From the IMG/VR virus record IMGVR_UViG_3300033004_000001, positions 1 through 64,000 of that record: a stretch of 64,000 nt of DNA. One strand, 5' to 3'. The notes under the pieces are model-generated. The model saw only the letters and a list, made by a program, of their open reading frames with translations. It was not told where the DNA came from and made no database searches. This DNA is from a virus. How positions within the stretch are numbered: the stretch's first letter is position 1; each line of letters starts with the position of its first letter. A program made the translations under genes and the position numbers. Positions 2,531-52,830 of this stretch are shown piece by piece.

Positions 2531-2542
2531 TAATATAATATA

Positions 2543-2914
2543 ATGGAAGAATTAAAAGGACAAGGAGTTAGTGAAACTCCTCAAGATAAAGAACAAGATG
2601 TCAAACATTATGATTTTGGTCATCTGGTATTAAATTGTGGTAGATGTAATAGTAAGTATATTATAGAAGAAGATGTACCAGGTAATCAAGCTAGACAGAT
2701 AGTATTAGCTCCTACTAGTACTTCAGGAATAATGTTAGAATGTAAAGATTGTAAGAATAGAATGAGTTTATTTTTTATTGAATCTACTAAGAAAAAAGAT
2801 GAAACTACAGGACCAATTACAGATAATATTGAAAAACCTACTGAAGAAGTTAAAGAAGGAAGTAAAGATGAATCAGTTTCAGAAGAAGGTTCAGTTGAGG
2901 AATCAGCTGTATAG
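2543..2914 (+). CDS. Zinc-ribbon protein with acidic tail
   Basis: CGRC...CKDC motifs. Confidence 0.7.
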   Translation: MEELKGQGVSETPQDKEQDVKHYDFGHLVLNCGRCNSKYIIEEDVPGNQARQIVLAPTSTSGIMLECKDCKNRMSLFFIESTKKKDETTGPITDNIEKPTEEVKEGSKDESVSEEGSVEESAV

Positions 2915-3227
2915 TGAGTATAGTAAGTTATTAAAGAGTTTATTAGGATTAACGGATAAACAAGTTCTTGTATTGTCTAAGTTATTTGAACTATCTGATA
3001 CTACTCCACTTCTTACATCTCTATTATGTAAGAATAATAGACGAGAGATTATGGAATCATGTTCTATAAATGAATGTAATCTTTCTACTTATTTAACTTT
3101 ATTTAAAGATAAAGAGTTATTAGTTTGGGATGGTAGTAGATGGATTATCTTTGATAAGATTAAACCTTATATAGTTAATAATCGATTACAAGTTACTTTT
3201 AAAATTGGATTAGATGATAGTATATAA
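2868..3227 (+). CDS. Putative winged-helix DNA-binding protein
   Basis: ATG 2868 preferred over 2778; GLTDKQ..VL and RREIMESCSI..NLSTYL..FKDKELL resemble wHTH; position upstream of crAss packaging block. Confidence 0.55.
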   Translation: MNQFQKKVQLRNQLYSEYSKLLKSLLGLTDKQVLVLSKLFELSDTTPLLTSLLCKNNRREIMESCSINECNLSTYLTLFKDKELLVWDGSRWIIFDKIKPYIVNNRLQVTFKIGLDDSI

Positions 3228-3396
3228 AAGAATAATACTAGAGACAGTTAATATTAAAGATAAAGAACATAAGATTAGTGATGTTGATTATACTAAGAAG
3301 ATATGGTTGTTTGGATGGTTAGTGTATAGTCATACTTGTACTAGTAAGCAGAATGATGTAGAGAATAAGAATAAGATGGGATTTAAACATAAATAA
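3214..3396 (+). CDS. Small hypothetical protein
   Basis: ORF track, coupled to neighbours. Confidence 0.6.
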   Translation: MIVYKRIILETVNIKDKEHKISDVDYTKKIWLFGWLVYSHTCTSKQNDVENKNKMGFKHK

Positions 3397-3397
3397 T

Positions 3398-3637
3398 ATG
3401 GAGGAGATAATTAAAGAACTGTCTTTGAAATATAATAAAGATAAGAGGGTGATCAAACTAATATGTGAGCACCCTTTACTATTTACAGCACATCATATCA
3501 AAGATCCAAATGATAATAGACCTATTATGATTCCATACTTTGCTAAGTTTGTTTTTAAGTTTGGTAAGACTTTAGAAGGTAAAAAACTTAATGTAGAGAA
3601 ACTTTTATCTAAGAGATCCATAGCTAAGAAGCAGTAA
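3398..3637 (+). CDS. HU/IHF-like DNA-binding protein
   Basis: Two N-terminal helices followed by IMIPYFAKF strand motif; conserved location before terminase genes in crAss-like phages. Confidence 0.6.
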   Translation: MEEIIKELSLKYNKDKRVIKLICEHPLLFTAHHIKDPNDNRPIMIPYFAKFVFKFGKTLEGKKLNVEKLLSKRSIAKKQ

Positions 3638-36831: not shown

Positions 36832-38673
36832 ATGGCTATTTCAAGATATGACCAACCTGCTCAATCTAATGCTTTAGATACTTTTGTTAATACTTACGTT
36901 CCAATTCCTTTTGAAGAAATGATGAAAGTTGGGATGATGAAGAAACAACAAGAGGATCAAGGATTTGAGAATCTAGCTAAAACTTACGAAGATACTCATA
37001 ATCTTAAATATATATCTGGATCTGAGGATGAAAAATATATCAAACAACATGTATTACCAACTTCAGAAGATATATTTAATAGATATGCTAATCAAGATTT
37101 GAGTGATCCTGTTGTTCAACGTAAGATGAGAATGGAATTTAATTCTAAGATTGATAGAAATAGAATTAGAGATATTCAAAGTTCTTATGAAGGATGGCAA
37201 AACTATTTAAAAGATAATGCTAAATTAAAGATGGAGGGTAAGGCATCTCCATTTGAAGAAGATCCATCTAGAGGATGGGATAGTAGTAAGCATGGAGTAT
37301 TTACTAAATCACCTGAAGCTTATAATGATCCTATCAAAGAGATAAGAGAAAATCTATTTGCTCCAGTACATGATAGTACTTTAAAGAGTATTAATCTTGG
37401 AGAAGGTAATATAGAAGTAATGAGTGGAGTTAATCAAAAAATGATTGATGATATTACTGTAAAGAATTTACCTAACTACTTACGTAATAATACTGGAAGG
37501 AATGCTATCAAAGAGTTTAGAGCTAGTACAGGATTAACTGAAGATCAAGCTAGTGATGCTAAGATATTAGCAATGGCATTTAGAGCTGCTGGAGAACCCT
37601 ATCTAAGACAGAATCAAAAGATTGAACATATGCAGAGACCTAGACCTGATAAGAATAAAGGTACTAAACCAATGTTTTCTAATGCATCTAATACTCAATC
37701 ATTAAAGAATACAGATAGAGTTACGATAGGTAAAGAATATATAGGAGTTAATCTTAATGAAGCTGATGATCCAGTTAAGATGATGAAATCTGGACATTAT
37801 AATGAGAAAGGAAATCTTAAGATTAATGTTCCTAGTACTACTGGTGAAAGTATTAAAGATATTTGGGAGGATATAAAAAAGTCTATTAGTACTGGAAAAA
37901 TGGATACAGGAACAGAACAAGTAGGTTATGCTGATATATCAAAATTAGCACAAAATTATAATAATCAAAGAACTATAATTAATAGTATTAAAGAATCAAA
38001 TCCAGAATTAGCAAATTCTTCAGATATCGAAGTAATGGGTGCTTATGCTAAAGCTTATAAAAATGCTGAGAATGTAGATTATAATGTATATTTATATCCT
38101 AATGATTCTAAGAATAATGTAGCAAAAGATATGACTGACTTAATAACTAAAGATTTAGGAGGTAGATTGTTATATAGTGCTCAAACTGGAAAACATGCAG
38201 GAGAACCAATTAATACTATAGATGATATATTTAAGAAACTAAATGTACCAAAAGCAGATAGAAAAAGATCAAATATATCTGTTAGTGGAGCAGTACCTGC
38301 AAAGAATGCTTATAAGGCTAGTATAGCAGCTAGTGATGGTCCACATGATTTCTTAGTATCTACTAATCAAAGAGAACAACACGCTTTCAAACTTGTAGAA
38401 GATGCTAATAGATTAGCTAATAATGGAATTCTTGGAGATAAACCATTGGTTTATAAAGATGAAAATGGTAATATTACAGATAAATATACAATTAGAACTC
38501 ATATAGATATGAATGGTCCTAGGGGTCCAGAATTTGTTTCAGATATAGTTATGGGTAATAAAGCAATGTCGTTGAATGAATTAGAATATAGATCTGCACA
38601 TTCATTAGAAGTACCAGATAACTCACCAGATAATACACAACCTGAAAATATAACTTATTCAGATGCCGAATAA
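36832..38673 (+). CDS. Virion cargo (ejection) protein 2
   Basis: SRYD...NTYVPIPF N-terminus typical of this crAss gene; synteny. Confidence 0.7.
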   Translation: MAISRYDQPAQSNALDTFVNTYVPIPFEEMMKVGMMKKQQEDQGFENLAKTYEDTHNLKYISGSEDEKYIKQHVLPTSEDIFNRYANQDLSDPVVQRKMRMEFNSKIDRNRIRDIQSSYEGWQNYLKDNAKLKMEGKASPFEEDPSRGWDSSKHGVFTKSPEAYNDPIKEIRENLFAPVHDSTLKSINLGEGNIEVMSGVNQKMIDDITVKNLPNYLRNNTGRNAIKEFRASTGLTEDQASDAKILAMAFRAAGEPYLRQNQKIEHMQRPRPDKNKGTKPMFSNASNTQSLKNTDRVTIGKEYIGVNLNEADDPVKMMKSGHYNEKGNLKINVPSTTGESIKDIWEDIKKSISTGKMDTGTEQVGYADISKLAQNYNNQRTIINSIKESNPELANSSDIEVMGAYAKAYKNAENVDYNVYLYPNDSKNNVAKDMTDLITKDLGGRLLYSAQTGKHAGEPINTIDDIFKKLNVPKADRKRSNISVSGAVPAKNAYKASIAASDGPHDFLVSTNQREQHAFKLVEDANRLANNGILGDKPLVYKDENGNITDKYTIRTHIDMNGPRGPEFVSDIVMGNKAMSLNELEYRSAHSLEVPDNSPDNTQPENITYSDAE

Positions 38674-41600
38674 TAAACAACAGGCTCAACAGGAACCTAC
38701 TCCATCTTGGGCATTACAACGAAATAGACCAACTTATAATACTGTAACAGGAGAATTCTCTCCTGTTAGTTCTTTATTGGATAAAGATGAACATGAAAGA
38801 ATAAAGAAGATTCCATTTACTGGAGGTAATGCTGCAACTTATTTAGGTGATGCTGGAGAATCTGTTTATGACAAAAATTTAAGTAGACAGAATATAGATC
38901 TTAAAGATGAGTTTAGAGGACAGAATCAACCTGCTATGGCGAAGCTTGGTGCTGGATTAGCTAAAGCATTGATTACTACTGGGACTACTGCAGCTGATGG
39001 AATAATTGGTACAGCTGTAGGATTAGGTAATATGGCTGTTGAACAGAAAGGATCTGCATTTTGGGATAATCCATTTACTAATTGGATGAATGATATTAAC
39101 AATAGTGCAGAAAAATGGTTTCCAAGTTATTATACAGAACAAGAAAAGAATGCTTCATTCATAGGACAATTAGGTTATGCTAACTTTTGGGGTGATAAAT
39201 TTCTAAAGAATTTAGGATTTGTTGCTGGTATGGTTCTAGATGGAGTTATTACTGGTGGTGCTTCAATGGAAGCTTTAGGTGGTAAAGCTATTGCAGCTAA
39301 GTTACCAGAGGCTATAGCAAATGCTGCTTTAAAAGGATCTGAAGCTTTAGCTACTGCTAGTAAAGCTGGTGATATGATAGGATTAACTTCAGAGATAATA
39401 AATAATGCTAAACAATTAAATAGAATTAACAAGATATCTCAAGGAGTTAGTAGCATATTATCTGCTCAAGGTATGTCTAGATTTATGGCTTTAGATGATG
39501 CTAATAGATTCTATACTGAAAATTATCAGAAGTTACAACAGCAAATGCAAGATGGTAAGATAGGATTAGAAGATTATAATCTTAAAATGGCATCATTAAA
39601 GAAAGCTTCTGAAGGATATGGTAATGCTGACTTCTTAGCTAATGTAGTTGTATTAGGATTATCTAGTGGAATACAGTTTAAGAATTTATTTACTAAAGGA
39701 TTTACTCCATCAGAAACTATTGCTAAAGGAATTGTTGGATCTGTAGAAGCTGGATATACTTATGAACGTCCAGTTATTCAACATGCTGCTAAAATTGCTA
39801 AGAATATATTAGCAGAGTCTGGAATGTTTCAAGAACAATATGCTGCTTCAGTAGCTACTAGTGATTTTTATCAAAAGAAATTTGATGGAAAGAAACAAGA
39901 TAAGATTGATGATATTTATCATTCTATTTATAAAGGGTTAGTTGATGCTTATGGAAGTAGAGAAGGATGGAATCAAGGACTACTTGGATCAGTTATAGGA
40001 TTAATTGGCGTACCTACTATTTCTAGTAAAGGATTAGATTGGGGTGGAGGTATTAGAGGAGATATTAAAGAGGTTAGAGAACAAAACGCAGCTAATCAAG
40101 AAGCTGCTAGACGTCTTAATGAAGTTCTTAAATCTGATGATTTTAAGAATAATTATCAATCATTAATTAGAAATTTATCATTAGAAGATGAAAAGAATGA
40201 AGCTGCAGCTAAGGGAGATAAGTTTGAAGTTCTTAATAAACAACATGATCAATTTATAAATGATGCTTTACAATTCATTAGGGCTGGAAGATATGAAGAC
40301 TTTCAAAATAATATTAAATTTATAAGAAATTCTAATGCTGAAGAAGTTAAACAGTTATTTAAAACTAAGACAAATGAAGATGTTACTAGAGAACTGTATG
40401 GATTAAAACCTAAAGCTTTAGAAGGACATGTGTTTGAGAAATATACAGCAGATGAGATAACTGATAAACTTAATGAGAATGCTAATAAGATGCTTTCAAA
40501 TGCTAAGACTATAAAAGATTTATATGACGCATATTCTGTAAAGTATCCTGGAATATCTGAAGATGCTAAAGAGTTATTAATATATACTGCATCTAAGCTA
40601 GAAGATATAAATGAACGTCTTAATGATATTAATAAAGAATCTATTAATAAATTTGGATTAGATATTAACAATTATATCAAACTTAAGAAAGACGGAAATA
40701 TAGATTTATCTTCTGTAGCAGAAGGTATGGAAGAGTATCAAAAGCATTATGATCAAGTAATAAAAGAACAAGAATTATCTGGTAGGTTTAATCCTGTAGA
40801 TGTTGAAAACTTTGAAAGAAATTTTCAAGACTTTCCAAAATTAATTATTACTAAAGCAGATTTTATAGATTTATATAGACAGAATATAACTGCTAAAGGG
40901 CCAGAGAAAGTACAAGAGACTATTAACAAAGCAGATGAAGAAAGAAAGACTGTAGAAGGAACTGCTGTAATTGAACCTATGCCTGATGATTTAGTCACTT
41001 ATACTAATACTGATGGAGAAACTAATGTATATAAAATTAATCAAATTGATGAGAATGATAATGTAACTTTAACTCCTACTGATACTGAAGGTGTACCAAC
41101 TGGTGAGGCAGATATAATAGTTACTAAGAATGATATCAAATTATATCAAAAAGAAGGAAAAGGTAAAGAAGAATTAAGTAAAACTGAACCTGTAAATGAA
41201 AGTGAAACTACAACGGTTCCAAATAAAGAATTCTATCCTGAACATGGTAGAGGTCTTAGAGATGCATCTGTATCTATATCACATTCTCATTGGGATGGAA
41301 AGTTAGGTAAGACAGTAATTAGAAATGAAGATTTTGATAAGTATATATCTTCACCAAAGAATGATATAACTAAAGATAAAGTTCAGTTTCGTATTGATAC
41401 TGGTACTGAAGATGAATATAAAAGTAGTTTATGGAGACTTCATAAGAAGATTAAAGCTAAGTTAGACAAAGGAGAAACGTTTACTGAGAAGGAAATTAGT
41501 GATATAGTTAATTCTAGAAGAACTACTGAAGATAGAGATGAATATAATTCTATAGTTGATACATTACCAATTAAAATAGATTATATTACTAAAGATGGTG

Positions 41601-44600
41601 AAGTATTTGATAAAGGATTGTATTATCATGATAGTAATTTTATTCATCAGAATAAAGCTGGTGAATGGAATATCAGAATTCCTAGAGAGTATAAAACTCC
41701 AGAAGCAATTAAAGACTATGTACAATCAGAAAGAGAAAAAGTAAGACAGAATAGAAAAGTTTTACTAACTGCAATCTTATCTGGAAAAGATGTTATTCTT
41801 CATAATATTAAAAGAATAAGTTCTATTCCAAACAATACTGGAAAGAATAGAAATATTGATGAGGTATTAAGAGAAATAGATCCTGATATAAATACTAATA
41901 CTATTGGATTAGGAATAGCTATTGGTAAAGGAAAAGAGAAAGGTATAATATGGACTGGGCATGGTAAAGATAATTTAAAAGGTACTGGAAGCCCTGGTCA
42001 TGTATTCTTTCAAACTAATTTAACTAGTGATGGAGAACCAGAAACTATTAAAGCTAATATATCTAAGTTATCTCAAGAACATGCTAATATATTATGGGAT
42101 GCTATAGTTACTAGATCTCGTAAAGGTAGTGGAGGTAATCAAGCTATACTACCAAATGAAGATGTACAAGGTCTTACAGTAGGAAATGTAATAAACTTAT
42201 TAACTGCTTTTGGTAGAGGTACTGATATTAATCATCCAGATAATGTTGGAAAGAGTCATCTTAAAGATAAACAATTATTTATAGATAATAAACTTAATTT
42301 ACATTATGGAGATAATATAGTAGATCTACATGATGTACTTAAAGGAACTATAGATAGAAATAAGGCTAGAGATAAGTTTGTTAATTGGGCTGTTAATAAT
42401 AAGAATTATAATGTTGCTAAAGAAATTCCAGAGTTAGGAATAGAACTTAATGAACCTATGACTAGAAAATTTAAGTTAGGCTCATGGGTTAGTGATGGAA
42501 CAGATACATATTCTGGTAGTCTAATTAAGAATGGATTTGTTCAAACTGATGTAGCTGAATTTGAAAAGTCTGGGTCGTTATTCCATGCTCCAGTTACTAT
42601 GGTTGATTTAAATGAATCAGGATTAGAAATTAAACCTACTCAACCAATTGTAAATAAAGCTAAGAGAGATGCTAAATTAGTTGACACTCAAGCTACTAAA
42701 CCATCTAATAAACCTAAGAATACTGGAACTAAAAAGATTGAAGCTTCAGAGAAACTTGATATTAAACCTAATGATTTAGAAAAGATTAGATCTTTACCAG
42801 TTGGAACTGATATATATATTACTATACAAGGAACTGCTGGGGAAGGATCAGAAGTTAGAAAAACAGAAGTTCCAAAGTTATTTGTATCGGTAGTAGATAA
42901 TAAAGGTAAAAAAGGATTTCAAATTCAGAATCCTAGAGCTAGAACTTATTTTGATATCTCTACGGCTGAATATATGGATGATCCAAATAAGATATTAGAA
43001 GTTGGAGATGAATCAGTTAAACAATTATCTTCATTAATATCTCAATATAGTAAAGAGGGATTTGATGTTAATATAGATACTTCAAAAGCTATTAAGAAAC
43101 CTATAGCTAAAGTTGAATCTAAAGTTGAAGAAGCTTATGAAGAAGCTAAAGAAAAATATGGAGAAGTATTAACTAAATTAGCAGAAGAAACTCCTCCTAC
43201 TGAAGAAGAACCAATTGATATTAAATTTACTGGAGATCCATTAAATGATGTAGAAACTGATCCTGAAGGAGCTCCATTTAAAATGGTTTATGATGAATCT
43301 CGTAAATATAAACCAGCTGAAATAGAAAAAGAAGTTAAATGGTTTCACGATAAGCTTGGTAAAGATATTCCAATTGAATTAAGAGAAGGATTAATTGATG
43401 TAGCTAAAGTTGGAGGTAAGAAAGCATTTGGACAATTAACTAGAGATGGAATTACTTTATCCAAAATAGCAGAAGAAGGGACTGTATATCATGAAGCATT
43501 TCATAGAGTATCCTTACTATATTTAGATCCTATTCAACGTGAAGAGATTTATAAAGAAGCTAGAAGTAAATATCCTGAACTTAGTAAATCTTCTACTGAT
43601 AGAAGAGTAGAAGAAAACTTAGCTGAGAAGTTTAAAGATTATATTCAAGATAAAGAGAAGAATCCTGATCATACTTTATTAGGTAAGATTGGAGAATTCT
43701 TTCAAAATTTATGGAATTTAGTTAAACAAATATTTACTGGACCAACTAGATTAACTAGTTTAGATATAGATAAACTATTTAGTTCTATTCAATCTGGTAA
43801 ATTTAAATCTTATAAACCGTTACAAGAGAACTTAGATAGATTAGGATTTGGTACATATGAATTAGAATATAAAGATAGACAGCTAGATAATGTTATCAAC
43901 TTTAAAATGATGAAGTCCTTAATTAGAGGATTATCTAGTATGATAATGGAGCCTGTTAGTTATAAACTATTTAAAGATGAAGCTAGAACTAAGTATTCTA
44001 GTATTGATGTAAAAGATTCTTTATCAGCTATTAACTTTGGTGATCTAAGGAAGAAGATTGAGAAATTAAGAGATGATTATGATAAACATAATAATAGAAA
44101 CAAGCAGGTAATAGACATAATTGAGAAAGGGCAACTAACCCCTGAATTAAGCTCACAGTTGAAAGCAGAGTATGGAGTGGACAATACTACCAGAGTTGCT
44201 ACAAATGCTCACCTTGGGCTTGAAAAGGGCCTTAGACTGGCTTCTTTATATCAGGAGGTACTAGACAACTATGACACTATCTTTAAAGATGAAATTCAGA
44301 ATTATATCTATAACGAACTAGGAGTTAAAAGAATTGATAATGGTGATGAAGACGAAAGAGTAACTAATGCTGAGACAGCAGCACATGATACAGAGGCATA
44401 TGAAAGGTCTGCTAAGGACAGTATTTCTAATGCTATTAAGTTTATGTTGCATGGGTTACATGCATCTGGAGATAAGAATCCTGATACTGGATTATGGGAG
44501 TTTGTACCATTTGATGAAATATGGAGTAGATTATCTAATGATTTACATAATAAGACTACCATAGAAGATATGATTAAGAAGCTTGATTCTTCAAATTATT

Positions 44601-47600
44601 TTCCATATGAACAATTAGCTAAGAAACTAAAAGCTGGTAGTGAGTTATTAAGAACTCAATTCTATACATCTCTTAGAGGACATAGATATAATTTTATTAA
44701 TGCTATGTTTAAAGAAGCTGCTGGTAGAAAGAAGGGAGAGTTACCAAACTTTTCAATGTATTTTACAGATGCAGATATTGAAAATTCTGCTAAGAATGCA
44801 GTTAGACTTTGGGGTGATGTATTTGCTATATCTGATTTAGTATCAGAAGGAGCAGTTAATACTAAGAAATTAGAGAAGATAATTAAAGACTTTGATAATA
44901 TTATTGAAGATTATAGAGAGGCTACTAATACTAAAGCTTTAATAAATACTGAAGATTATAAAGATAGATTAGTATCTATTCTTAAAGATATTCATATAGA
45001 TGTAGATAATAAGACTATTGATAATCTATTAGGTGATATTATAGATAGTGGTAAAGCTGGTACTGAAGAATTGGCATTAGGACAATTAATAGAAGATAGA
45101 TTATTTAATGGGTTATTTTCTACTAATAGTACTCTTTATAAATATGCTACTGGAGCTGATGTTAAATCTAGAGTTACATTAGAACCTAAGACATTATTTA
45201 GAAATGAGTCTATAGTTACTGATTTATCTAGAGCATTTGCTAAAACTAACTATGAAAATATTTCAGATAATATTTCTGGAGCAGATGGAGGTAATAAACA
45301 TGTATTTTCTAAGAATAGTTTAACTACAGATGTAATTCATTATTTAAAAACTGATGATGAATATTTAGATAAACTATTATCAGATGTATCTTCTAAATAT
45401 TCACATTATCTTAATCAAATAAAAAATAATCCTAGAGTTAGAAATAGACTTAAAGTTGGAACATTTAATGCTTTGATTAAAGATAATAGTTCTGATTCTG
45501 GTAGAGATTATCTAGATATATCTCCTACTGAAGATTTCTTATATAAACTCAATGCTACTAGATTTGGAACTGGGAATATGATTCTTCCAACAATTGCTGG
45601 TAGAAAAACTTATTATACTTTAAATGGATTTGATAGAATAGAACTTAAGTATCAGAAATTACCTTCTGGAGAACTTGTTATTCCAGATGATATAATTGAT
45701 ATATTTTATAAGTATGCTCAAGGAGAAGCTAATAAGATAGAGAAAGCTTGGCAGACTCTTAAGAAGTATAGTAAACTAGATGAAAAAGGTAACGTTATAA
45801 AAGGTACTACAGATTTTAAAAATCTTGTTGATAACTATCATTATGTTAAAGAAGGGAAGGTTAATAATATAGATAAAGGACAGGCATATAAGTATCAACA
45901 TATGTTTGAATCTTTTAATGAAAAAGGATTTGATATAAAGAATGAAGCAGATGTAAGAGATAGAATTAGAAAGATATTACAGAGTGATATAGATGCTACC
46001 ATTGAATATGCTAAAGATAATGATATAATAACTTCTACAACTAAAGATAAAAAGGAATTATTAGCTCCTAAGCTTCTTGATAGAGATATGGTATCTGAAT
46101 TAGCTAATAAGAGTTATGGAGGAGATATAGATGCAGCTACCAGGTCAATATTAGCTGATTATACTGTTAATACTAAGATATCATCTATTGAGACTATGAT
46201 GATGTTTATGGGTGATATATCTTTCTATTTTGATAAAAAGACTGAAGATCCAGCAGTTGATTATGCAAAACGTTTAGCTGTATTAATTTCTACTGGAACT
46301 AATTATAGAGAGACTATACCAGTTGATTTTGAAAATCCTACATATGGAGTTATTACATTAACTGAACAAAAATTAAATAGTAAATATCTAGATCTTATCA
46401 CAGATAAGTATAGGGAAATGTTACTTAAAAAGTATAATAAAGAACAAGCAGAAGAAATATTATCAAAACATCTTAAAGCATATGAAGATATTCAACCAAC
46501 TGATGCTATGGTACTTATTTCTCCTAATATGTATAAAGGAGAATCGCTTCGTTTAGGTGAATGGGGTGATAAAGAAGAAGCTGCTTTTAATATACTTAAT
46601 TCTGATAAAGAATTGTCTCCAGAAGAAGAAGCTATAGCATTAGGAATATCTGAGAAACCATTAAAAGATGTATATTTTGAGAGAGTTAGTTATGATATAG
46701 ATAATGATAATAAACTTCTAATTCCTACTTTTGATAAGATGGCTAAATTTACATTAAATAGACGTCTTGTAAAAGGAACTTATTTTGAAGACTTATTAGA
46801 TAGAATGGAAGCTGTTGGTAAGTACGAAGGTCTTGAGAAAGTATGTGAAGCTAAATTTACTACTGCAGTTAAAGTTGGAAATAGACAATCAACTGAATAC
46901 TTTAAGAATCCTAATACTAATGAACAATCAGTTACTGATTTAACAAATGTTCCAATACGTCAACAAAGTTTTAAATTCTTACGTCGTCAGGTTAATACGG
47001 ATCCTCATGAAGAACAAAAAGTTCTCTATGGAACTCAAGCTAAGAAGGTTACACTGCTTAATATATCAAATGATAATGATTATAATTTAGGTGGTAAATC
47101 TACAAAAGGGTTAGACATAAAGAGAAATATTACAAAATCTTTAACTACATTATCAGATAAAGAAACTAATAGACTTCTCGATAAACTTGGTGCAGATTTG
47201 AAGACTGGTAAGATGGATTCTGATCTATTCTACAATACATTATTAGCTGATGCTAAGACAGCTGGTATGTCATATCCAGTTCAAGAAGCATTACGTAGAC
47301 ATATTCCAATAGATTTACTTCCTGAAAAGAAATGGATATTGCAGAGATTTAGCGCAATGGCTAATAAACATGGAATAGATGTCCATTTTCCTGGACAACA
47401 GTTAATATTAATGTCTGGATATGGATTAGGATTAAAATCAATTCCTGATGAAACTAATAATTTAAGATTCTTATTTGATGAGAAAGGTAAACTTTCAGGA
47501 TCTGAAGTAAAATTACCAGTTCATGTATTTAAAGATGTTATTCCTAACTATGAGAATATGAGTTGGGAACAAAAAGTTGAATGGTTAAAAAAGAATCCTA

Positions 47601-50600
47601 ATATGTTGGAAGGAATTGTATCTTATATTCCTAACCAAGGACAGAACCATAATATGGTTGTTAAGGTAAAAGAGTTTCTACCTGAACAAATGGCAGATGT
47701 TATTATATTCCCTAATGAACTTACAACTTTAACTGGAAAAGACTTTGACGTAGATAAAGGATTCTTTGCTAGATACAATTATAAAACTAACAAAGATGGT
47801 AAAGTATCTAAAGTTCCATTTATGACAGATGATAATTCTACTCCTGATCAAAGATACGATAAGTTATTGAATGAAGAATTCTATAATAATAGGTACATAT
47901 TTACTAAGGAATTCTATAGAGATTTACAAGAAGCTAGAGATAACTTATATGGATCATTAGATTATAAGAATAAACTCTTAGGAGATGATAAAGTTAAGTT
48001 AGAAACTTTATTTGACTTAAGAAAGGAATTGTCTAAGAGATTTGATGAAGCATCTGAAAATGAAAAAGCATTCTATCATAAACAACTTTTAACTCTTGAT
48101 AGTAGAATTGATGATGTACTATACTATAATGATCTTATTAAAGAAAATGATGGATTACTAAAAGATTATAAGAGTGTTATAGAAGAAGCTTTAGTTAAGA
48201 ATAATATATTACCTTCTAGAGATGAATTTAAGAAACAACATGCTGAAGGAAAATTAGATTACTTTAAACAGAATACTAAACAAGCTATTCAAAATTATTA
48301 TTTAGATAATGTTAAATCTGTATTACTTAATGATAATCATTTCTTATCTACTAGCGCTCCTCTCGGAGCTGTTACAGGACGACTAAAGAAGTTAGAAGAG
48401 AAAGTAACTAAAGCAGAAGAAGCTGGTAAAAAGAGATCTAGAGATTTTACTGGACCAGTTGCTCAAGCAAATTTAAAATATCAATTTGGTAGTGGTGGAC
48501 AAGGAAAAGCTGTTTTCTCTTTAAGTAATTCTCATCATGCTATGACTCAATATGCTGATGTATCTTTTAGAAAGGATATAGGAGTTGGAGTTAAAAATGA
48601 TGATGGAACGTATAAGAATAGTTTACATGAACAATATGGTAATGTTGAAAGAGACGGAGAAAGAGTATTAATATCTGACTGGGGATCAGCTTTAATTGAT
48701 GCTCACGTTGATATAGAAAAAGATCCATTTATCATTAAACTTAATGTAGTTAAGCCTACTTATAATGTAACTTCATTATTAATTAGAACTGGAGTTGGAG
48801 AGAAGACATTTGAATTCTTATCTCAACCAATTCTTAAAGATTTCTCTAAAGCGTCTATTAATGATGATAGTGAAATTACTACAGAACAAGATAAACCTAT
48901 AGCTGTAGTTAGAAATAAATGGAATGATTTATATGAAAAATCTCTTAAATCTGAATTTAAAGATGTACAAGAGTCTCGTAGAGAAGATGTTAAGATTAGA
49001 ACTGAACTTGCTGAATACAAACCATTAGATGAAGATTTATTAAAGTTATTACAAACTCCTGTTAGAGATTCTAGATGGTATTTTAAACAAATTAAAATAT
49101 TAGATTTATTTAATACTTTAGATAAAGGACCAGCTAAAGAACTAAATAGATTAGTAATGGCTTCTAGAGTTGATACTAAGAAGTATGGTAATAATATGAC
49201 TGAAATAAAGATGTATTTAGATGCTGTCAGAGACTTACATAAAGAAAATATCTTTACTAATCTTGATAAGTTATTACCATATGATTCAGATACAAATACT
49301 GCTAAGGATGTAGAAGATGGAACATTCAACTCTGCATACTTACGTAATGGTCCTCTTCTTGTAAGTAAGTTAATGTCAGATAGAACTATAACTGCTACTC
49401 CTACATTCAATAGTATTATAGATAGACTTGTAACTCTTACTAAAAGTAAATACGCTAGGAATAAAGAAGGATTATTAAATCATATGGCAGATGAAGTTAG
49501 TGCTGCATATATGTCTAGGTTCTTTACTGATAAGAATTTATTAAACTTAAATAGTAAGAAAGTTGGTTCTATAATGGATAGAGTTACTAAGTTCTTAGAA
49601 ACTGTTAACACTAATCCTAATTATAAAGATAAATTAAAAGATAACATTTTAATACAATCTCTTATTAAAGGTAGAGATAGTATGGATGGAATGACATTCT
49701 TTGGAATTCCAACTATAAAATCAAATGATAATTTTACTAAAGATGATTTAATGTTTGCTTGGCAAGACTTATTACAAAGTGATGATGTAACTTTAAGAAA
49801 CTTTGGTAAAGAGTTATTCGTATATTCATTTTATACATCAGGATTAAAGAGAGGATTATTTTCAATATTTCATTATGTTCCACCAGCATTATTAGATGAA
49901 TTAGATATTAATTACGTTGATCCAGAAACTAATGAAAAGAAATCCACTATATTAAGTTATTCAGATTATACTGATGGATTACTAGCACAGGATGTAATGA
50001 GTAATACTATATATGAAGGAATAGATAAAGAAGTATTTAAAAATAATTGGCATAATCCTAAATATGTACCTCAATTAAATCCAATTGATGTTCAGAATAT
50101 AATTCCTAGAAAATCTGGAGATCCTGCTGTTGTTACAATATATGGTAGATATACTATTCCTAAGTTACGAATAGGTAATAATATATATGATCAACCTATT
50201 TTTAAGCCTTATATTAATTATATAGTTGACGAAAAGACTTCACATTTAATGGAATATATTGGATATCATGATATTGATAAAACTCCAGTATATAAAGTTG
50301 TTGGTAAGATGGGATATTATAATAAAGGGAGAGTTATTAAGGAATATGGATTAGAAGAATCAACTCTTGAAAGAAATAGAATTAAAGAAATTCCAGATGA
50401 AACAATGCTTCCTTTTATAGAGAAAGCTAAGATGTATGAATCATTTATCTATATACCACCAGAAAATAGAGATATAGCTGAGAATAAAAGATCTGAAGAA
50501 GAAGTTGAGAATAATGATGCTAAAGATAAAGTTACTCCTACTACTGGAGAAGGAACTACTGTTGAAACAGTAAAACTTAAAATGATCACTCCTGATAAGG

Positions 50601-50806
50601 AGAAAGAAGATTTGAAAAGAGAGATATCTGAATCTGAGATTTATTCAGATAAACAGAAAGATGAATTACATAAACTAATAGATGACAAAGATGTTAAATC
50701 TCCAGAGGATATTAATGATTTGATAAAAATAATTTGTGATAAATATGGATCTCCAAGAGTTAAAATTACTCCAGGAGCTAAGAATAGATTTTCAATTAAT
50801 GATTAA
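38663..50806 (+). CDS. Giant virion-associated RNA polymerase polyprotein (double-psi beta-barrel) with zincin-like domain
   Basis: 4047 aa; DFDVDK at 47741-47758, AVKVG, GTQ..K, HVD..KDP; HEAFH at 43490; N-terminal Gly/Ala-rich membrane-like segments. Confidence 0.9.
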   Translation: MPNNKQQAQQEPTPSWALQRNRPTYNTVTGEFSPVSSLLDKDEHERIKKIPFTGGNAATYLGDAGESVYDKNLSRQNIDLKDEFRGQNQPAMAKLGAGLAKALITTGTTAADGIIGTAVGLGNMAVEQKGSAFWDNPFTNWMNDINNSAEKWFPSYYTEQEKNASFIGQLGYANFWGDKFLKNLGFVAGMVLDGVITGGASMEALGGKAIAAKLPEAIANAALKGSEALATASKAGDMIGLTSEIINNAKQLNRINKISQGVSSILSAQGMSRFMALDDANRFYTENYQKLQQQMQDGKIGLEDYNLKMASLKKASEGYGNADFLANVVVLGLSSGIQFKNLFTKGFTPSETIAKGIVGSVEAGYTYERPVIQHAAKIAKNILAESGMFQEQYAASVATSDFYQKKFDGKKQDKIDDIYHSIYKGLVDAYGSREGWNQGLLGSVIGLIGVPTISSKGLDWGGGIRGDIKEVREQNAANQEAARRLNEVLKSDDFKNNYQSLIRNLSLEDEKNEAAAKGDKFEVLNKQHDQFINDALQFIRAGRYEDFQNNIKFIRNSNAEEVKQLFKTKTNEDVTRELYGLKPKALEGHVFEKYTADEITDKLNENANKMLSNAKTIKDLYDAYSVKYPGISEDAKELLIYTASKLEDINERLNDINKESINKFGLDINNYIKLKKDGNIDLSSVAEGMEEYQKHYDQVIKEQELSGRFNPVDVENFERNFQDFPKLIITKADFIDLYRQNITAKGPEKVQETINKADEERKTVEGTAVIEPMPDDLVTYTNTDGETNVYKINQIDENDNVTLTPTDTEGVPTGEADIIVTKNDIKLYQKEGKGKEELSKTEPVNESETTTVPNKEFYPEHGRGLRDASVSISHSHWDGKLGKTVIRNEDFDKYISSPKNDITKDKVQFRIDTGTEDEYKSSLWRLHKKIKAKLDKGETFTEKEISDIVNSRRTTEDRDEYNSIVDTLPIKIDYITKDGEVFDKGLYYHDSNFIHQNKAGEWNIRIPREYKTPEAIKDYVQSEREKVRQNRKVLLTAILSGKDVILHNIKRISSIPNNTGKNRNIDEVLREIDPDINTNTIGLGIAIGKGKEKGIIWTGHGKDNLKGTGSPGHVFFQTNLTSDGEPETIKANISKLSQEHANILWDAIVTRSRKGSGGNQAILPNEDVQGLTVGNVINLLTAFGRGTDINHPDNVGKSHLKDKQLFIDNKLNLHYGDNIVDLHDVLKGTIDRNKARDKFVNWAVNNKNYNVAKEIPELGIELNEPMTRKFKLGSWVSDGTDTYSGSLIKNGFVQTDVAEFEKSGSLFHAPVTMVDLNESGLEIKPTQPIVNKAKRDAKLVDTQATKPSNKPKNTGTKKIEASEKLDIKPNDLEKIRSLPVGTDIYITIQGTAGEGSEVRKTEVPKLFVSVVDNKGKKGFQIQNPRARTYFDISTAEYMDDPNKILEVGDESVKQLSSLISQYSKEGFDVNIDTSKAIKKPIAKVESKVEEAYEEAKEKYGEVLTKLAEETPPTEEEPIDIKFTGDPLNDVETDPEGAPFKMVYDESRKYKPAEIEKEVKWFHDKLGKDIPIELREGLIDVAKVGGKKAFGQLTRDGITLSKIAEEGTVYHEAFHRVSLLYLDPIQREEIYKEARSKYPELSKSSTDRRVEENLAEKFKDYIQDKEKNPDHTLLGKIGEFFQNLWNLVKQIFTGPTRLTSLDIDKLFSSIQSGKFKSYKPLQENLDRLGFGTYELEYKDRQLDNVINFKMMKSLIRGLSSMIMEPVSYKLFKDEARTKYSSIDVKDSLSAINFGDLRKKIEKLRDDYDKHNNRNKQVIDIIEKGQLTPELSSQLKAEYGVDNTTRVATNAHLGLEKGLRLASLYQEVLDNYDTIFKDEIQNYIYNELGVKRIDNGDEDERVTNAETAAHDTEAYERSAKDSISNAIKFMLHGLHASGDKNPDTGLWEFVPFDEIWSRLSNDLHNKTTIEDMIKKLDSSNYFPYEQLAKKLKAGSELLRTQFYTSLRGHRYNFINAMFKEAAGRKKGELPNFSMYFTDADIENSAKNAVRLWGDVFAISDLVSEGAVNTKKLEKIIKDFDNIIEDYREATNTKALINTEDYKDRLVSILKDIHIDVDNKTIDNLLGDIIDSGKAGTEELALGQLIEDRLFNGLFSTNSTLYKYATGADVKSRVTLEPKTLFRNESIVTDLSRAFAKTNYENISDNISGADGGNKHVFSKNSLTTDVIHYLKTDDEYLDKLLSDVSSKYSHYLNQIKNNPRVRNRLKVGTFNALIKDNSSDSGRDYLDISPTEDFLYKLNATRFGTGNMILPTIAGRKTYYTLNGFDRIELKYQKLPSGELVIPDDIIDIFYKYAQGEANKIEKAWQTLKKYSKLDEKGNVIKGTTDFKNLVDNYHYVKEGKVNNIDKGQAYKYQHMFESFNEKGFDIKNEADVRDRIRKILQSDIDATIEYAKDNDIITSTTKDKKELLAPKLLDRDMVSELANKSYGGDIDAATRSILADYTVNTKISSIETMMMFMGDISFYFDKKTEDPAVDYAKRLAVLISTGTNYRETIPVDFENPTYGVITLTEQKLNSKYLDLITDKYREMLLKKYNKEQAEEILSKHLKAYEDIQPTDAMVLISPNMYKGESLRLGEWGDKEEAAFNILNSDKELSPEEEAIALGISEKPLKDVYFERVSYDIDNDNKLLIPTFDKMAKFTLNRRLVKGTYFEDLLDRMEAVGKYEGLEKVCEAKFTTAVKVGNRQSTEYFKNPNTNEQSVTDLTNVPIRQQSFKFLRRQVNTDPHEEQKVLYGTQAKKVTLLNISNDNDYNLGGKSTKGLDIKRNITKSLTTLSDKETNRLLDKLGADLKTGKMDSDLFYNTLLADAKTAGMSYPVQEALRRHIPIDLLPEKKWILQRFSAMANKHGIDVHFPGQQLILMSGYGLGLKSIPDETNNLRFLFDEKGKLSGSEVKLPVHVFKDVIPNYENMSWEQKVEWLKKNPNMLEGIVSYIPNQGQNHNMVVKVKEFLPEQMADVIIFPNELTTLTGKDFDVDKGFFARYNYKTNKDGKVSKVPFMTDDNSTPDQRYDKLLNEEFYNNRYIFTKEFYRDLQEARDNLYGSLDYKNKLLGDDKVKLETLFDLRKELSKRFDEASENEKAFYHKQLLTLDSRIDDVLYYNDLIKENDGLLKDYKSVIEEALVKNNILPSRDEFKKQHAEGKLDYFKQNTKQAIQNYYLDNVKSVLLNDNHFLSTSAPLGAVTGRLKKLEEKVTKAEEAGKKRSRDFTGPVAQANLKYQFGSGGQGKAVFSLSNSHHAMTQYADVSFRKDIGVGVKNDDGTYKNSLHEQYGNVERDGERVLISDWGSALIDAHVDIEKDPFIIKLNVVKPTYNVTSLLIRTGVGEKTFEFLSQPILKDFSKASINDDSEITTEQDKPIAVVRNKWNDLYEKSLKSEFKDVQESRREDVKIRTELAEYKPLDEDLLKLLQTPVRDSRWYFKQIKILDLFNTLDKGPAKELNRLVMASRVDTKKYGNNMTEIKMYLDAVRDLHKENIFTNLDKLLPYDSDTNTAKDVEDGTFNSAYLRNGPLLVSKLMSDRTITATPTFNSIIDRLVTLTKSKYARNKEGLLNHMADEVSAAYMSRFFTDKNLLNLNSKKVGSIMDRVTKFLETVNTNPNYKDKLKDNILIQSLIKGRDSMDGMTFFGIPTIKSNDNFTKDDLMFAWQDLLQSDDVTLRNFGKELFVYSFYTSGLKRGLFSIFHYVPPALLDELDINYVDPETNEKKSTILSYSDYTDGLLAQDVMSNTIYEGIDKEVFKNNWHNPKYVPQLNPIDVQNIIPRKSGDPAVVTIYGRYTIPKLRIGNNIYDQPIFKPYINYIVDEKTSHLMEYIGYHDIDKTPVYKVVGKMGYYNKGRVIKEYGLEESTLERNRIKEIPDETMLPFIEKAKMYESFIYIPPENRDIAENKRSEEEVENNDAKDKVTPTTGEGTTVETVKLKMITPDKEKEDLKREISESEIYSDKQKDELHKLIDDKDVKSPEDINDLIKIICDKYGSPRVKITPGAKNRFSIND

Positions 50807-50820
50807 TTATATGTACTAAG

Positions 50821-51192
50821 ATGAAAGATAATAAGAATTACGGAATGGAAATAATAGTAGATCTTCATGATTGTAATATTAAGAGATTTACTAGAAAAAG
50901 TCTAGATGAGTTTTTCTTAAAGATATGTGAATTAAGCGATATGACTGCAGTGGGTAAGCCCAAATACTGGCACGAGTTATCTAATATACCACACCTTAAG
51001 GGTTACTCAGGAATACAGTTTATAAAGACAAGTAATATACTAATACATACATTAGATATTACAAGAGATGCTTATATAAATTTTTTTAGTTGTAAAGAGT
51101 TTGATGTTGATCAAATTCTCAGCTTTATTACAGAACATTTTCAAGCAGGACGAGTATATCATAAACTAATATATAGAGGAGAAAATAGATAA
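50821..51192 (+). CDS. Pyruvoyl-dependent decarboxylase proenzyme, AdoMetDC/SpeD class 1b fold, divergent
   Basis: G..IIVDL..C, GYS63, T70-S71, IH76T, FSC91K: spacing of processing residues conserved. Confidence 0.85.
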   Translation: MKDNKNYGMEIIVDLHDCNIKRFTRKSLDEFFLKICELSDMTAVGKPKYWHELSNIPHLKGYSGIQFIKTSNILIHTLDITRDAYINFFSCKEFDVDQILSFITEHFQAGRVYHKLIYRGENR

Positions 51193-51581
51193 TGTATAAG
51201 ATAGAATCTGGAGTATCTAAAGATAAAATGAGATACTTTATAGAACAAGGAGTGTCGACATGGGGTGATTATTTTATAAAAGATGGAGTTCTAAATTTTC
51301 AAATAGTTGAACATAAAAATGATATATATTCAAGACTTACTTTAATACACGAATTAATTGAACAAATGTTATTAGAAGCTAAAGGAGTTAATATAGATGA
51401 TATTGATAAATTTGACTTTGAATTTGAAAAAGATCCAGAAAGAACATCTAAATATTTTGAATCTGGAGATGATCCTAATTGTCCTTATAAAGCAGAACAT
51501 GATTATGCAGACTCTGTATTAAAAGAAATGTGTACTAAAATGAATATTAATTTTGAAGATTATATAAATGACGAATTATAA
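51192..51581 (+). CDS. Hypothetical metal-binding protein (HExxE...H)
   Basis: GDY, LIHELIE, D.FD, GDDP.CPY..EH..A; coupled to both neighbours. Confidence 0.6.
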   Translation: MYKIESGVSKDKMRYFIEQGVSTWGDYFIKDGVLNFQIVEHKNDIYSRLTLIHELIEQMLLEAKGVNIDDIDKFDFEFEKDPERTSKYFESGDDPNCPYKAEHDYADSVLKEMCTKMNINFEDYINDEL

Positions 51582-52830
51582 GACTAAAGCAGTTATGGTA
51601 TATGACTACGGAACATTTGTAGGATTATCAGAAAGACTTGCTAGAGATTTCGGAAAAGTATATTATTACTCTCCTTGGAAATCTTCATTTCCTCAAACTA
51701 AGAATTCGTATTTAGGACTAGGGTTAAAGAATGTTGAAAGAGTTAATGAATTTTTTGATTATATTCAAGATGTTGATTTAATAGTATTTCCTGATGTAAT
51801 GGATGGAGATTTACAATTACATCTTGAATCATTAGGATGTTCTGTATTTGGATGTAGAAAAGGAGAAGAACTAGAATTGAATAGATTAGCTACTAAAAGA
51901 TTACTAAAGAAGTTAGGATTACCAGTTGGAGAATATGAAGTAGTTAAAGGATTAACTAATCTTAGAAAGTATTTAAAAGAACATAAAAATATATGGGTTA
52001 AAGTAGATATATTTAGAGGAGATTTTGAAACTTTCAAGTCAGTTAATTATGATTTTATAGAACCTAGATTATATGAAATTGAGGTTAATTTAGGACCAAT
52101 TAAAGAATTAGTTAATTTTATATGTGAAGAAGATCTTCCAGATAAAGTAGAATTAGGATTTGATGGATACTGTATTGATGGTAAATATCCTACTAAAACA
52201 TTATCAGGAATTGAAGTTAAAGATTTAGGGTATATAGGGATATTTAAAGACTATAATAAATTACCTGATCCCATACTAGAGGTTAATGAAAAGCTTTCCC
52301 CTATACTAAAAAATTATGGATATAGAGGATTATTTAGTACTGAAGTTAGAATTGGTAAAGATCATAAAGGATACTTGATAGATCCTTGTATGAGAGCTGG
52401 CTCACCACCTAATGAAGTGTATCAAGAGATGTATACTAATTTATCAGAGATTATGTATGAAGGTGCTAGAGGCAATATAGTAGATCCAATTGTTGAACAT
52501 AAATTTGCAGTTGAAGTATTAATACATTCTACTTATGCTGAAACTCATTGGTTATCTGTTCAAGTTCCAGAGAAGTATTACAATAATGTTAAGTTTAGAA
52601 ATTGTACTAGACTTGATAAAGTACATTACATAATTCCACAGTATATAGGATTACCAGAAATAGGTGCTGTTACAGTTGTAGGAGATAGTATAGAAGCATG
52701 TACTGAACAAATTGATAAAATAGCAGATGAAGTTAAAGGATTTTATATTGATATTCCATCTCATGCATTAGATAAAGCTAATGAAGAAATAGATAAGTTG
52801 AAAGAATTAGGATATGATTTATTTAAATAA
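51568..52830 (+). CDS. ATP-grasp ligase, PurD (GAR synthetase)-like but divergent
   Basis: VFG....ELE.NR...K..L.K.GLP..EY...L..YL....WVK, EE.L..VE.G, C-terminal IDPCMRAGSPP (cf. EFNxRFGDP). Confidence 0.82.
   Translation: MTNYKTKAVMVYDYGTFVGLSERLARDFGKVYYYSPWKSSFPQTKNSYLGLGLKNVERVNEFFDYIQDVDLIVFPDVMDGDLQLHLESLGCSVFGCRKGEELELNRLATKRLLKKLGLPVGEYEVVKGLTNLRKYLKEHKNIWVKVDIFRGDFETFKSVNYDFIEPRLYEIEVNLGPIKELVNFICEEDLPDKVELGFDGYCIDGKYPTKTLSGIEVKDLGYIGIFKDYNKLPDPILEVNEKLSPILKNYGYRGLFSTEVRIGKDHKGYLIDPCMRAGSPPNEVYQEMYTNLSEIMYEGARGNIVDPIVEHKFAVEVLIHSTYAETHWLSVQVPEKYYNNVKFRNCTRLDKVHYIIPQYIGLPEIGAVTVVGDSIEACTEQIDKIADEVKGFYIDIPSHALDKANEEIDKLKELGYDLFK

What the first reader, a model, noticed from the sequence alone, without database searches (positions are those of the whole stretch)
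47600..47770. Virion RNAP active site looks remodelled: RxP arginine replaced by Tyr, Lys placed before DFDVD
Seen: LEGIVSY2988IPNQGQNH...TGK3026D3027FDVDKGF. Established: two-barrel polymerases carry an Arg in an RxP motif ~35-40 residues before DxDxD (E. coli beta' R425 in NRAP), which senses the NTP 2'-OH. From recollection, crAss-like RNAPs read GYRIPxQ...GSDFDIDK. Here the Arg position is Tyr and the small residue before the first Asp is Lys, while all three Asp are kept. Other motifs also appear off-consensus from memory (TDAM, PGQQLILMS, LIDAHVDIEKDP). Inference: either the Lys compensates for the lost Arg, or sugar/substrate specificity is altered, or the enzyme is decaying or repurposed.
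Basis: partly seen in the sequence, partly recalled or inferred. Interest (0 to 1): 0.78.

Follow-up and report, generated by a model that had tools for sequence, protein, structure and literature searches.

The report
Phage RNA polymerase with relocated active-site charge
The RNA polymerase that this crAss-like phage injects has lost an arginine kept by nearly all polymerases of its type and gained a lysine beside the catalytic aspartates, and an unrelated marine lineage made the same swap, which suggests a working alternative active-site design.

Summary
The 4047-aa ORF (38663-50806) is a crAss-like virion RNA polymerase (PDB 6VR4, E 1.8e-42). Y2988 aligns with gp66 R1322, the Arg of the R-x-P "Pro-gate" loop (E. 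coli beta' R425, QDE-1 R962). K3026 replaces the Ser before DFDVD.

It is not an artefact or decay:
- An 83%-identical relative from two other assemblies shares both residues; its Lys codon is AAG, against AAA here.
- dN/dS is 0.21-0.26.
- The Asp triad, barrel lysines and trigger-loop motif are kept.
- The 92.6-kb genome is complete and has one polymerase gene.

Among 374 family representatives, 366 have the Arg and none of these has K/R at -1. All 8 without the Arg have K/R there. These 8 form two separate clades: this one (Tyr+Lys) and a marine Tara clade (Gly+Lys or Gly+Arg). The AU test rejects joining them (p = 0.0003). In an unbiased scan, only these two columns shift in both clades.

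Best reading: a basic residue at -1 takes over nucleotide binding from the lost Arg, as in archaeal PolD, which has the same arrangement. Sugar selectivity may be relaxed. This is untested, and I could not measure the geometry. The other "off-consensus" motifs are mostly ordinary.

Variant of a known enzyme; apparently undescribed.

The parts
38663..50806 (+). Gene for the 4047-aa virion RNA polymerase (P0001). The polymerase core lies at about residues 2420-3470.
   Evidence: ORF list and translation. 6vr4_A by sequence, E 1.8e-42. AF2 model of residues 2560-3460: pLDDT 81, pTM 0.83. Foldseek top hit 6vr4_A, E 3.6e-33, followed by QDE-1.
46736..46873 (+). K2692 (46736-46738) and K2737 (46871-46873): family-invariant lysines upstream of the aspartate barrel. 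I infer they are the basic-motif lysines of the other barrel.
   Evidence: 116/116 conserved and kept here and in the marine Arg-less clade. The assignment to the b-motif is inference.
47408..47410 (+). L2916 (TTA), where the family has Gln (gp66 Q1240 in FIQLS).
   Evidence: Gln in 225 of 253 others. Leu is shared by P0001 and P0002. The change is not tightly coupled to Arg loss: P0043 has Leu with Arg/Ser, and in the marine clade the Gln appears shifted by one residue.
47621..47632 (+). Pro-gate loop S2987-Y2988-I2989-P2990, in place of the family's Y/F-R-I-P. The Arg that senses the ribose is replaced by Tyr.
   Evidence: Alignment to gp66 R1322. Arg in 366 of 374 relatives, Tyr only here and in P0002/L034, Gly in 6 marine ones. 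Role of the R-x-P loop in QDE-1, Pol II and E. coli: PMC9508822 and PMC7862312.
47693..47695 (+). A3011, where the family has Gly (the GD of LPE..GD). A clade-specific change.
   Evidence: Gly in 231 of 253 others; Ala in P0001 and P0002.
47738..47740 (+). K3026 (AAA), directly before the first catalytic Asp. The family has Ser, or rarely Ala/Phe.
   Evidence: K/R at this column in all 8 Arg-less enzymes and in none of 366 others. The codon is AAG in L034, a synonymous difference.
47741..47755 (+). Catalytic metal-binding loop D3027-F-D3029-V-D3031.
   Evidence: Invariant in all relatives. Each Asp is essential in gp66 (bioRxiv 10.1101/2020.03.07.982082).
47756..47761 (+). K3032-G3033. The Gly replaces an aliphatic residue (Leu in 209 of 253 others).
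   Evidence: Column 3033 also changes in the marine Arg-less clade, but to Phe/Tyr. That the volumes are complementary to Tyr versus Gly at the Pro-gate position is my inference.
48692..48727 (+). LIDAHVDIEKDP, the trigger-loop motif. D3350 aligns with gp66 D1612.
   Evidence: Fits the family consensus; V3349 and D3350 are over 90% conserved. It aligns inside gp66 residues 1598-1636, which the gp66 paper calls the trigger loop.

Best explanation
This is a working virion RNA polymerase of a crAss-like phage with a rebuilt nucleotide-binding pocket. The Arg of the R-x-P Pro-gate loop normally hydrogen-bonds the 2'-OH of the incoming NTP and of the RNA 3' end. Here it has been given up (Tyr in this clade, Gly in a marine clade). 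A basic side chain (Lys or Arg) now sits on the residue directly before the Asp triad, and from there it can reach the incoming nucleotide. The new residue restores the binding energy or positive charge that the Arg supplied, so the enzyme still makes RNA. Shown: the two changes, their strict co-occurrence, their two independent origins, and purifying selection. Inferred: that the Lys contacts the nucleotide (triphosphate or ribose), and that RNA synthesis is retained.
For: Identity as a gp66-type polymerase. Phage context (crAss-type terminase, portal and head protein; complete 92.6-kb record with terminal repeats; single polymerase copy). Covariation: Arg at the Pro-gate position in 366 of 374 cluster representatives drawn from three neighbourhoods of the family; K/R at -1 in 8 of 8 Arg-less and 0 of 366 Arg-bearing enzymes. 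Independence of the two clades: the tree, built without the trait columns, nests this clade among Arg-bearing P0003-P0006/P0013 and nests the marine clade among Arg-bearing P0167-P0178, each with support 99-100. Two changes are needed, and the AU test rejects a single clade (p = 0.0003, lnL difference 814). Unbiased scan: of 659 comparable columns, only 2988 and 3026 shift in both clades against uniform sister groups, and 3026 is the only column that is basic in both clades and in no other sequence. Rough chance that the only two gains of a basic residue fall on exactly those two stem branches: 3e-5. No intermediate (Arg+Lys, or no Arg with Ser/Ala) was seen. Selection: dN/dS is 0.26 over 3143 codons and 0.21 in the core against L034, and the Lys codon differs synonymously. 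The clade keeps 33-34 of the 39 columns that are at least 90% conserved, including the Asp triad, K2692, K2737, P2990, K3032, N3211 and D3350. The marine clade is common in Tara Oceans samples; one cluster has 38 members. Plausibility of the contact: in PolD, which lacks the Arg, R960/R961 directly before the acidic motif are needed for full activity and are modelled on the incoming nucleotide (PMC7708050). In QDE-1, the backbone of the residue at -2 holds a cation that touches the NTP beta-phosphate (PMC9508822). In E. coli, R425K raises the KD for GTP from 3.1 to 140 uM, so losing the Arg costs binding energy that needs replacing (PMC7862312).
Against: There is no activity or expression data for this enzyme. 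The geometry was not measured, because the tools gave no coordinates for the AF2 model, so I cannot say the Lys reaches the ribose rather than the phosphates, or the nucleotide at all. There are only two evolutionary events, so a sign test over independent pairs has no power. The strength lies in site specificity. Overlap of shifted columns alone is weak: 44 and 6 shifted columns give an expected overlap of 0.4. Only the best 150 of 891, 120 of 230 and 120 of 477 hits were seen, so untested lineages could break the rule. This clade carries further changes near the site (V2986, S2987, L2916, A3011, G3033) whose roles are unknown. Replacing binding energy would not by itself restore discrimination against dNTPs.
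Confidence: 0.62

Rival explanations
1. The remodelling changes what the enzyme accepts. Without the Arg that both favours NTPs and deforms dNTPs, and with a PolD-like basic residue before the acidic motif, the polymerase has relaxed or altered sugar selectivity. It might accept dNTPs or 2'-modified nucleotides, or use a different initiating nucleotide or a DNA 3' end. This overlaps with the best explanation: affinity could be rescued while selectivity is lost.
For: In E. coli, R425K lowers selectivity 17-fold at binding and 25-fold at incorporation. [quoted passage not shown] PolD, the DNA polymerase of the superfamily, lacks the Arg and carries R960/R961 at -2/-1. In QDE-1 the Arg binds the 2'-OH of both initiating nucleotides.
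Against: No steric gate is present. PolD's gate is a His after the Pro, whereas here that residue is Asn, as in Arg-bearing sisters. The Tyr is not shared by the marine clade, which has Gly. The trigger-loop motif with its invariant Asp is kept. The genome has one polymerase of this kind, and in phi14:2 this enzyme transcribes the early genes. A primase and a DnaB-type helicase are encoded separately.
Confidence: 0.22
2. The two substitutions are functionally unlinked. They drifted or hitch-hiked in a fast-evolving protein, and their co-occurrence in two clades is coincidence.
For: crAss-like RNAPs evolve very fast (PMC7886860). This clade has 44 fixed differences from its sisters in the core, so some overlap with the marine clade's 6 is not rare (expected 0.4).
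Against: Both columns are otherwise almost frozen: Arg in 366 of 366, and no K/R at -1 in 366. Both changes need at least 2 base changes. The same chemical class appears at -1 in both clades, and within the marine clade it varies only between Lys and Arg.
Confidence: 0.08
3. The polymerase is catalytically dead or decaying and survives only as an ejected structural or cargo protein.
For: A residue described as universally conserved and catalytic is missing. Several neighbouring conserved positions are also changed.
Against: dN/dS is 0.21 in the core. The Asp triad and the other invariant residues are kept in both Arg-less clades. The catalytic block is not less conserved than the rest: identity to P0002 is 89% for residues 3001-3100, against 83% overall.
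Confidence: 0.04
4. Sequencing or assembly artefact at 47618-47626 and 47738-47740.
For: None found. Reads could not be inspected.
Against: The same residues occur in P0002 (ENA) and in L034 (a JGI contig of 93,055 bp), which are 83% identical to the window protein. The Lys codon is synonymous but different, and the reading frame is intact over 12 kb.
Confidence: 0.01

Closest known systems
Virion RNA polymerase gp66 of Cellulophaga phage phi14:2 (PDB 6VR4) and its Crassvirales orthologues
   Same: Homologous over the whole core (E 1.8e-42 by sequence, 3.6e-33 by fold). DFD[IV]D loop with Val/Ile in fourth place, single-chain two-barrel design, and the same trigger-loop motif. Giant virion-protein gene in a crAss-type genome.
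   Different: gp66 R1322 is Tyr here, S1360 is Lys, and Q1240 is Leu. The protein is about twice as long (4047 against 2180 aa). Identity in the core is about 21-33%.
Pro-gate (R-x-P) loop of QDE-1 (R962), Pol II Rpb1 (R446) and E. coli beta' (R425)
   Same: Same loop, the same Pro, and a similar distance before the Asp triad (39 residues here, 35 in E. coli, 45 in QDE-1).
   Different: The Arg is missing. In those enzymes it hydrogen-bonds the 2'-OH and is the main determinant of sugar selection.
Archaeal family D DNA polymerase, DP2 subunit (s-motif GLAPHT; a-motif R960-R961-NxDGD)
   Same: A two-barrel polymerase that lacks the Pro-gate Arg and has basic residues directly before the acidic motif, which act on the incoming nucleotide.
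   Different: PolD has a His steric gate after the Pro, Asn instead of the first Asp, Gly in fourth place, and is a DNA polymerase. None of these features is present here. The resemblance is convergent, not membership.
Tyr639 of T7 RNA polymerase (single-subunit RNAPs)
   Same: A Tyr is the sugar-discriminating residue in single-subunit RNAPs (abstract of PMC7862312). The specific residue T7 Y639 is from my own knowledge. A Tyr at a ribose-facing position is therefore compatible with RNA synthesis.
   Different: Unrelated fold. The marine Arg-less clade has Gly, so the Tyr cannot be the general solution.

Membership tests
crAss-like virion RNA polymerase (gp66 family) | Sequence and fold homology to gp66 across both barrels, the bridge helix and the trigger loop | tested here: met
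   phmmer E 1.8e-42 over about 950 residues. Foldseek E 3.6e-33, TM 0.67 normalised to the query. The trigger-loop motif aligns.
crAss-like virion RNA polymerase (gp66 family) | DFDxD metal loop with Ile/Val in fourth place | tested here: met
   DFDVD at residues 3027-3031.
crAss-like virion RNA polymerase (gp66 family) | Encoded in the block of giant virion proteins of a crAss-type genome | tested here: met
   PHROG terminase, portal and head protein hits, with virion structural proteins upstream. Complete 92.6-kb record.
crAss-like virion RNA polymerase (gp66 family) | Strictly conserved Arg of the Y/F-R-I-P loop | tested here: not met
   Tyr at position 2988. Arg in 366 of 374 relatives.
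crAss-like virion RNA polymerase (gp66 family) | Packaged in the virion, injected, and transcribes the early genes | not testable with these tools
   Shown only for phi14:2.
Two-barrel RNA polymerase superfamily | Asp triad plus the conserved Arg of RxP, described as one of seven conserved catalytic residues | tested here: not met
   The triad is present but the Arg is absent.
Family D DNA polymerase-like active site | PHT selectivity motif with a His steric gate after the Pro | tested here: not met
   The sequence is Y-I-P-N-Q. The residue after the Pro is Asn, as in Arg-bearing sisters.
Family D DNA polymerase-like active site | Basic residue(s) directly before the acidic motif, and no Pro-gate Arg | tested here: met
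   K3026 at -1 and Tyr at the Arg position. This is an analogy only.

The most novel reading that the evidence does not exclude
The Arg-less enzymes with a basic residue at -1 are natural two-barrel polymerases with relaxed or shifted sugar selectivity. They would be able to incorporate dNTPs or 2'-modified nucleotides, or to start from a DNA end. On this reading two phage lineages independently took the first steps of the RNAP-to-PolD type of active-site change.
Probability: 0.15. Interest if true: 0.9.

Novelty: new variant of a known kind. Interest (0 to 1): 0.72.

Why it matters
The Pro-gate Arg is described as universally conserved in two-barrel RNA polymerases and as the main device that selects NTPs over dNTPs. 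Here nature offers two independent, evidently successful lineages that do without it. Both solved the problem the same way, by placing Lys or Arg beside the catalytic aspartates. This is also the arrangement in the only DNA polymerase of the superfamily.

This gives a ready-made, testable pair of sites for asking how nucleotide binding and sugar selection are divided within this active site, and how an RNA polymerase core could drift towards DNA synthesis. The gp66 in-vitro system already exists for swapping the residues.

For phage biology, it shows that even the "strictly conserved" core of the crAss-like injected polymerase is evolvable.

Tried and rejected
- **DNA of the relatives:** I obtained DNA of a P0002-type phage through a metagenome pattern scan instead (L034).
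- **Testing whether K3026 fills the Arg's space:** the AF2 model was made, but no coordinates reach the script box, so no distances were measured.
- **More Arg-less variants in IMG/VR:** three pattern scans (Y-[IV]-P-N-Q-G-Q-N, G-K-D-F-D-x-D-K, G-R-D-F-D-I-D) found only unrelated proteins. A protein-based scan gave one Arg-bearing relative at 39% identity.
- **Q2916L as a third coupled site:** rejected as a general rule. P0043 has Leu with Arg/Ser, and in the marine clade and its Arg-bearing sisters the Gln seems displaced by one residue.
- **Minor-groove DNA modification (2-aminoadenine) as the cause:** the genome has no PurZ-type gene.
- **Link to the neighbouring enzyme cassette at 50821-52830:** the marine Arg-less locus L022 has no gene between the polymerase and the next giant gene. 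The ATP-grasp gene has no crAss-like homologues in the phage collection. The records behind L022 and L034 are not held, so they could not be searched further.
- **Literature:** no paper in the library links crAss-like polymerases with loss of the Pro-gate Arg. Extended Data Table 1 of the gp66 paper is an image, and the journal version is not held.
Full report
**What is there.** The window is the left two-thirds of a complete 92,612-bp virus record with direct terminal repeats. It is 29% G+C. It carries crAss-type terminase, portal and major head genes, followed by a run of giant virion-protein genes. The largest of these, 38663-50806 on the + strand, encodes 4047 residues (P0001).

Residues of about 2420-3470 match the virion RNA polymerase gp66 of Cellulophaga phage phi14:2 (PDB 6VR4) at E 1.8e-42. 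An AlphaFold model of residues 2560-3460, built on 31 relatives, has pLDDT 81 and pTM 0.83. Its best structural match is 6VR4 (E 3.6e-33), followed by the RNAi polymerase QDE-1. The genome holds only this one copy.

**The observation.**
- Y2988 is TAT at 47624-47626.
- K3026 is AAA at 47738-47740.
- D3027-F-D-V-D3031 lies at 47741-47755.

HMMER aligns SYIPNQGQ...TGKDFDVDK without gaps to gp66 YRIPNQGQ...TGSDFDIDK. So Tyr stands where gp66 has R1322, and Lys where it has S1360. The distance to the first Asp is 39 residues in both.

The R-x-P element is the "Pro-gate loop" of two-barrel polymerases.
- In QDE-1, R962 hydrogen-bonds the 2'-OH of the incoming NTP and of the 3'-terminal nucleotide (PMC9508822).
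- In E. coli, beta' R425 is the main determinant of NTP over dNTP choice. R425K raises the KD for GTP from 3.1 to 140 uM and speeds up dGMP incorporation (PMC7862312).

**Not an artefact, not decay.** The nearest relative, P0002 (83% identical over 4011 aligned residues), has the same Tyr and Lys. So does a separate JGI contig of 93 kb, L034, which is 99.4% identical to P0002.
- Against L034, dN/dS is 0.26 over 3143 codons and 0.21 in the polymerase core.
- The Tyr codon is TAT in both, but the Lys codon is AAA here and AAG there.
- A Tyr codon is at least two base changes from any Arg codon.
- Of 39 core columns that are at least 90% conserved in 116 other representatives, this clade keeps 33-34. 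These include the three Asp, K2692, K2737, P2990, K3032, N3211 and D3350.
- D3350 lies in LIDAHVDIEKDP. This motif fits the family consensus and aligns inside the stretch the gp66 authors call the trigger loop.

PGQQLILMS contains a real deviation, L2916, where 225 of 253 others have Gln.

**How unusual.** I collected cluster representatives from three neighbourhoods of the family:
- the exhaustive HMMER search of 1.84 billion representatives (891 hits, best 150 seen);
- two word-indexed searches around the window protein and a marine relative;
- one search around a gp66-like protein.

Of 374 sequences with a readable catalytic block, 366 have Arg at the Pro-gate position. Their residue at -1 is Ser, Ala, Phe or, rarely, something else, but never Lys or Arg. 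The other 8 lack the Arg, and all 8 have Lys or Arg at -1. No intermediate was seen.

**A second, independent origin.** A metagenome scan for G-K-D-F-D-x-D-K turned up a Tara Oceans contig, L022. Its polymerase reads GFGMPTEG...TGKDFDIDK.
- Its relatives P0162-P0164 have Gly plus Lys.
- P0165, P0166 and P0168 have Gly plus Arg. In these the Lys after the triad is also changed to Glu.
- The next relatives, P0167-P0178, have the usual Arg, with Ala at -1.
- This clade is common in Tara samples.

A maximum-likelihood tree of 63 cores was built with the trait columns removed. It nests the window's clade among Arg-bearing P0003-P0006/P0013, and nests the marine clade among Arg-bearing P0167-P0178 on the other side of the main split, with supports of 99-100. 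Two changes are required. The AU test rejects a tree that joins the two clades (p = 0.0003).

In an unbiased scan of 659 comparable columns, only 2988 and 3026 shift in both clades relative to uniform sister groups. Column 3026 is the only one that is basic in both clades and in no other sequence. A rough calculation from branch lengths puts the chance that the only two gains of a basic residue fall on exactly the two stems where the Arg was lost at 3e-5.

There is a caveat. With only two events, formal tests of correlated evolution have no power. The overlap of shifted columns alone is also weak, with an expected value of 0.4.

**How it probably works.** The common denominator of the two clades is the new Lys/Arg at -1. 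It is not the Tyr, because the marine clade has Gly. Two published observations place that position next to the incoming nucleotide.
- In QDE-1, the backbone carbonyl of the residue at -2 holds a third cation that touches the NTP beta-phosphate.
- In archaeal PolD, the DNA polymerase of this superfamily, the Pro-gate Arg is absent (GLAPHT instead of RxPxLH). Two arginines directly before the acidic motif, R960 and R961, are modelled on the incoming nucleotide and are needed for full activity (PMC7708050).

I therefore read the change as a relocation of the nucleotide-binding positive charge from the Pro-gate loop to the metal loop. This would restore the binding energy lost with the Arg. That is an inference, and the geometry could not be measured because no coordinates were available.

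One further pattern fits a shared pocket. The residue two after the last Asp is aliphatic in nearly all relatives. It is Gly where the Pro-gate residue is Tyr, and Phe/Tyr where the Pro-gate residue is Gly. This is as if one aromatic ring fills the vacated space in either case. That too is inference.

**What stays open.** Replacing binding energy would not by itself restore discrimination against dNTPs, so relaxed sugar selectivity is a live possibility.

Three points argue against a real switch to DNA synthesis:
- There is no steric-gate-like residue after the Pro. It is Asn, as in the Arg-bearing sisters.
- The trigger-loop motif is kept.
- This is the phage's only polymerase of the kind that transcribes early genes in phi14:2.

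A minor-groove DNA modification as the driver is not supported, because the genome has no PurZ-type gene. A link to the neighbouring enzyme cassette at 50821-52830, which another note of this scan proposes, is not needed for the Arg-less state. The marine locus has no gene between the polymerase and the next giant gene.

**Novelty.** The enzyme is a member of a known family by homology, but it fails that family's, and the superfamily's, "invariant Arg" criterion. I class it as a new variant of a known kind.

Noticed in passing
window 47759-47761 (G3033); P0162-P0168: The residue two after the last catalytic Asp is aliphatic in about 245 of 247 other relatives. It is Gly in the Tyr-bearing clade and Phe/Tyr in the Gly-bearing marine clade. 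This suggests that one aromatic ring fills the space left by the lost Arg in both.
   Followed up: partly
P0165, P0166, P0168 (marine relatives): Where the residue at -1 is Arg rather than Lys, the otherwise 98-99% conserved Lys after the triad (DFDIDK) is Glu (DFDIDE). This may be a further charge adjustment.
   Followed up: no
window 50821-52830: Three small genes lie between the polymerase and the next giant gene; other notes of this scan describe them as an amine-synthesis/ligation cassette. The 420-aa ATP-grasp protein has no PHROG family. Its only matches in the phage collection are in three Aquificae/Thermocrinis hot-spring viruses, at 24-31% identity.
   Followed up: partly
window 43490-43504 (residues 1610-1614 of the polymerase protein): An HEAFH zincin-like motif lies in the N-terminal half. 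It is conserved across relatives: the consensus of alignment A1 reads GT.YHEAFHRVSL. Pfam finds nothing in the whole 4047-aa protein.
   Followed up: no
genome 68159-69424 (L003:10159-11424, minus strand) and 80795-82279 (L004:5795-7279, minus strand): The replication module encodes a 421-aa formyltransferase (Fmt-like, both Pfam domains, with an extra N-terminal stretch of about 150 residues) and an AMP-binding (adenylate-forming) enzyme. Beside them are a primase, a DnaB-type helicase, a PDDEXK nuclease and an AAA ATPase.
   Followed up: no
P0162-P0178 and P0180, P0202: In the marine clade and its Arg-bearing sisters, the family-invariant Gln at the start of the aspartate barrel (G....VQ) appears one residue later (G....VLQ). 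A simple column count therefore wrongly scores it as lost.
   Followed up: partly
window 38663-50806: The 4047-residue protein contains only two cysteines. Earlier notes of this scan remarked on sparse cysteines in other injected polymerases.
   Followed up: no
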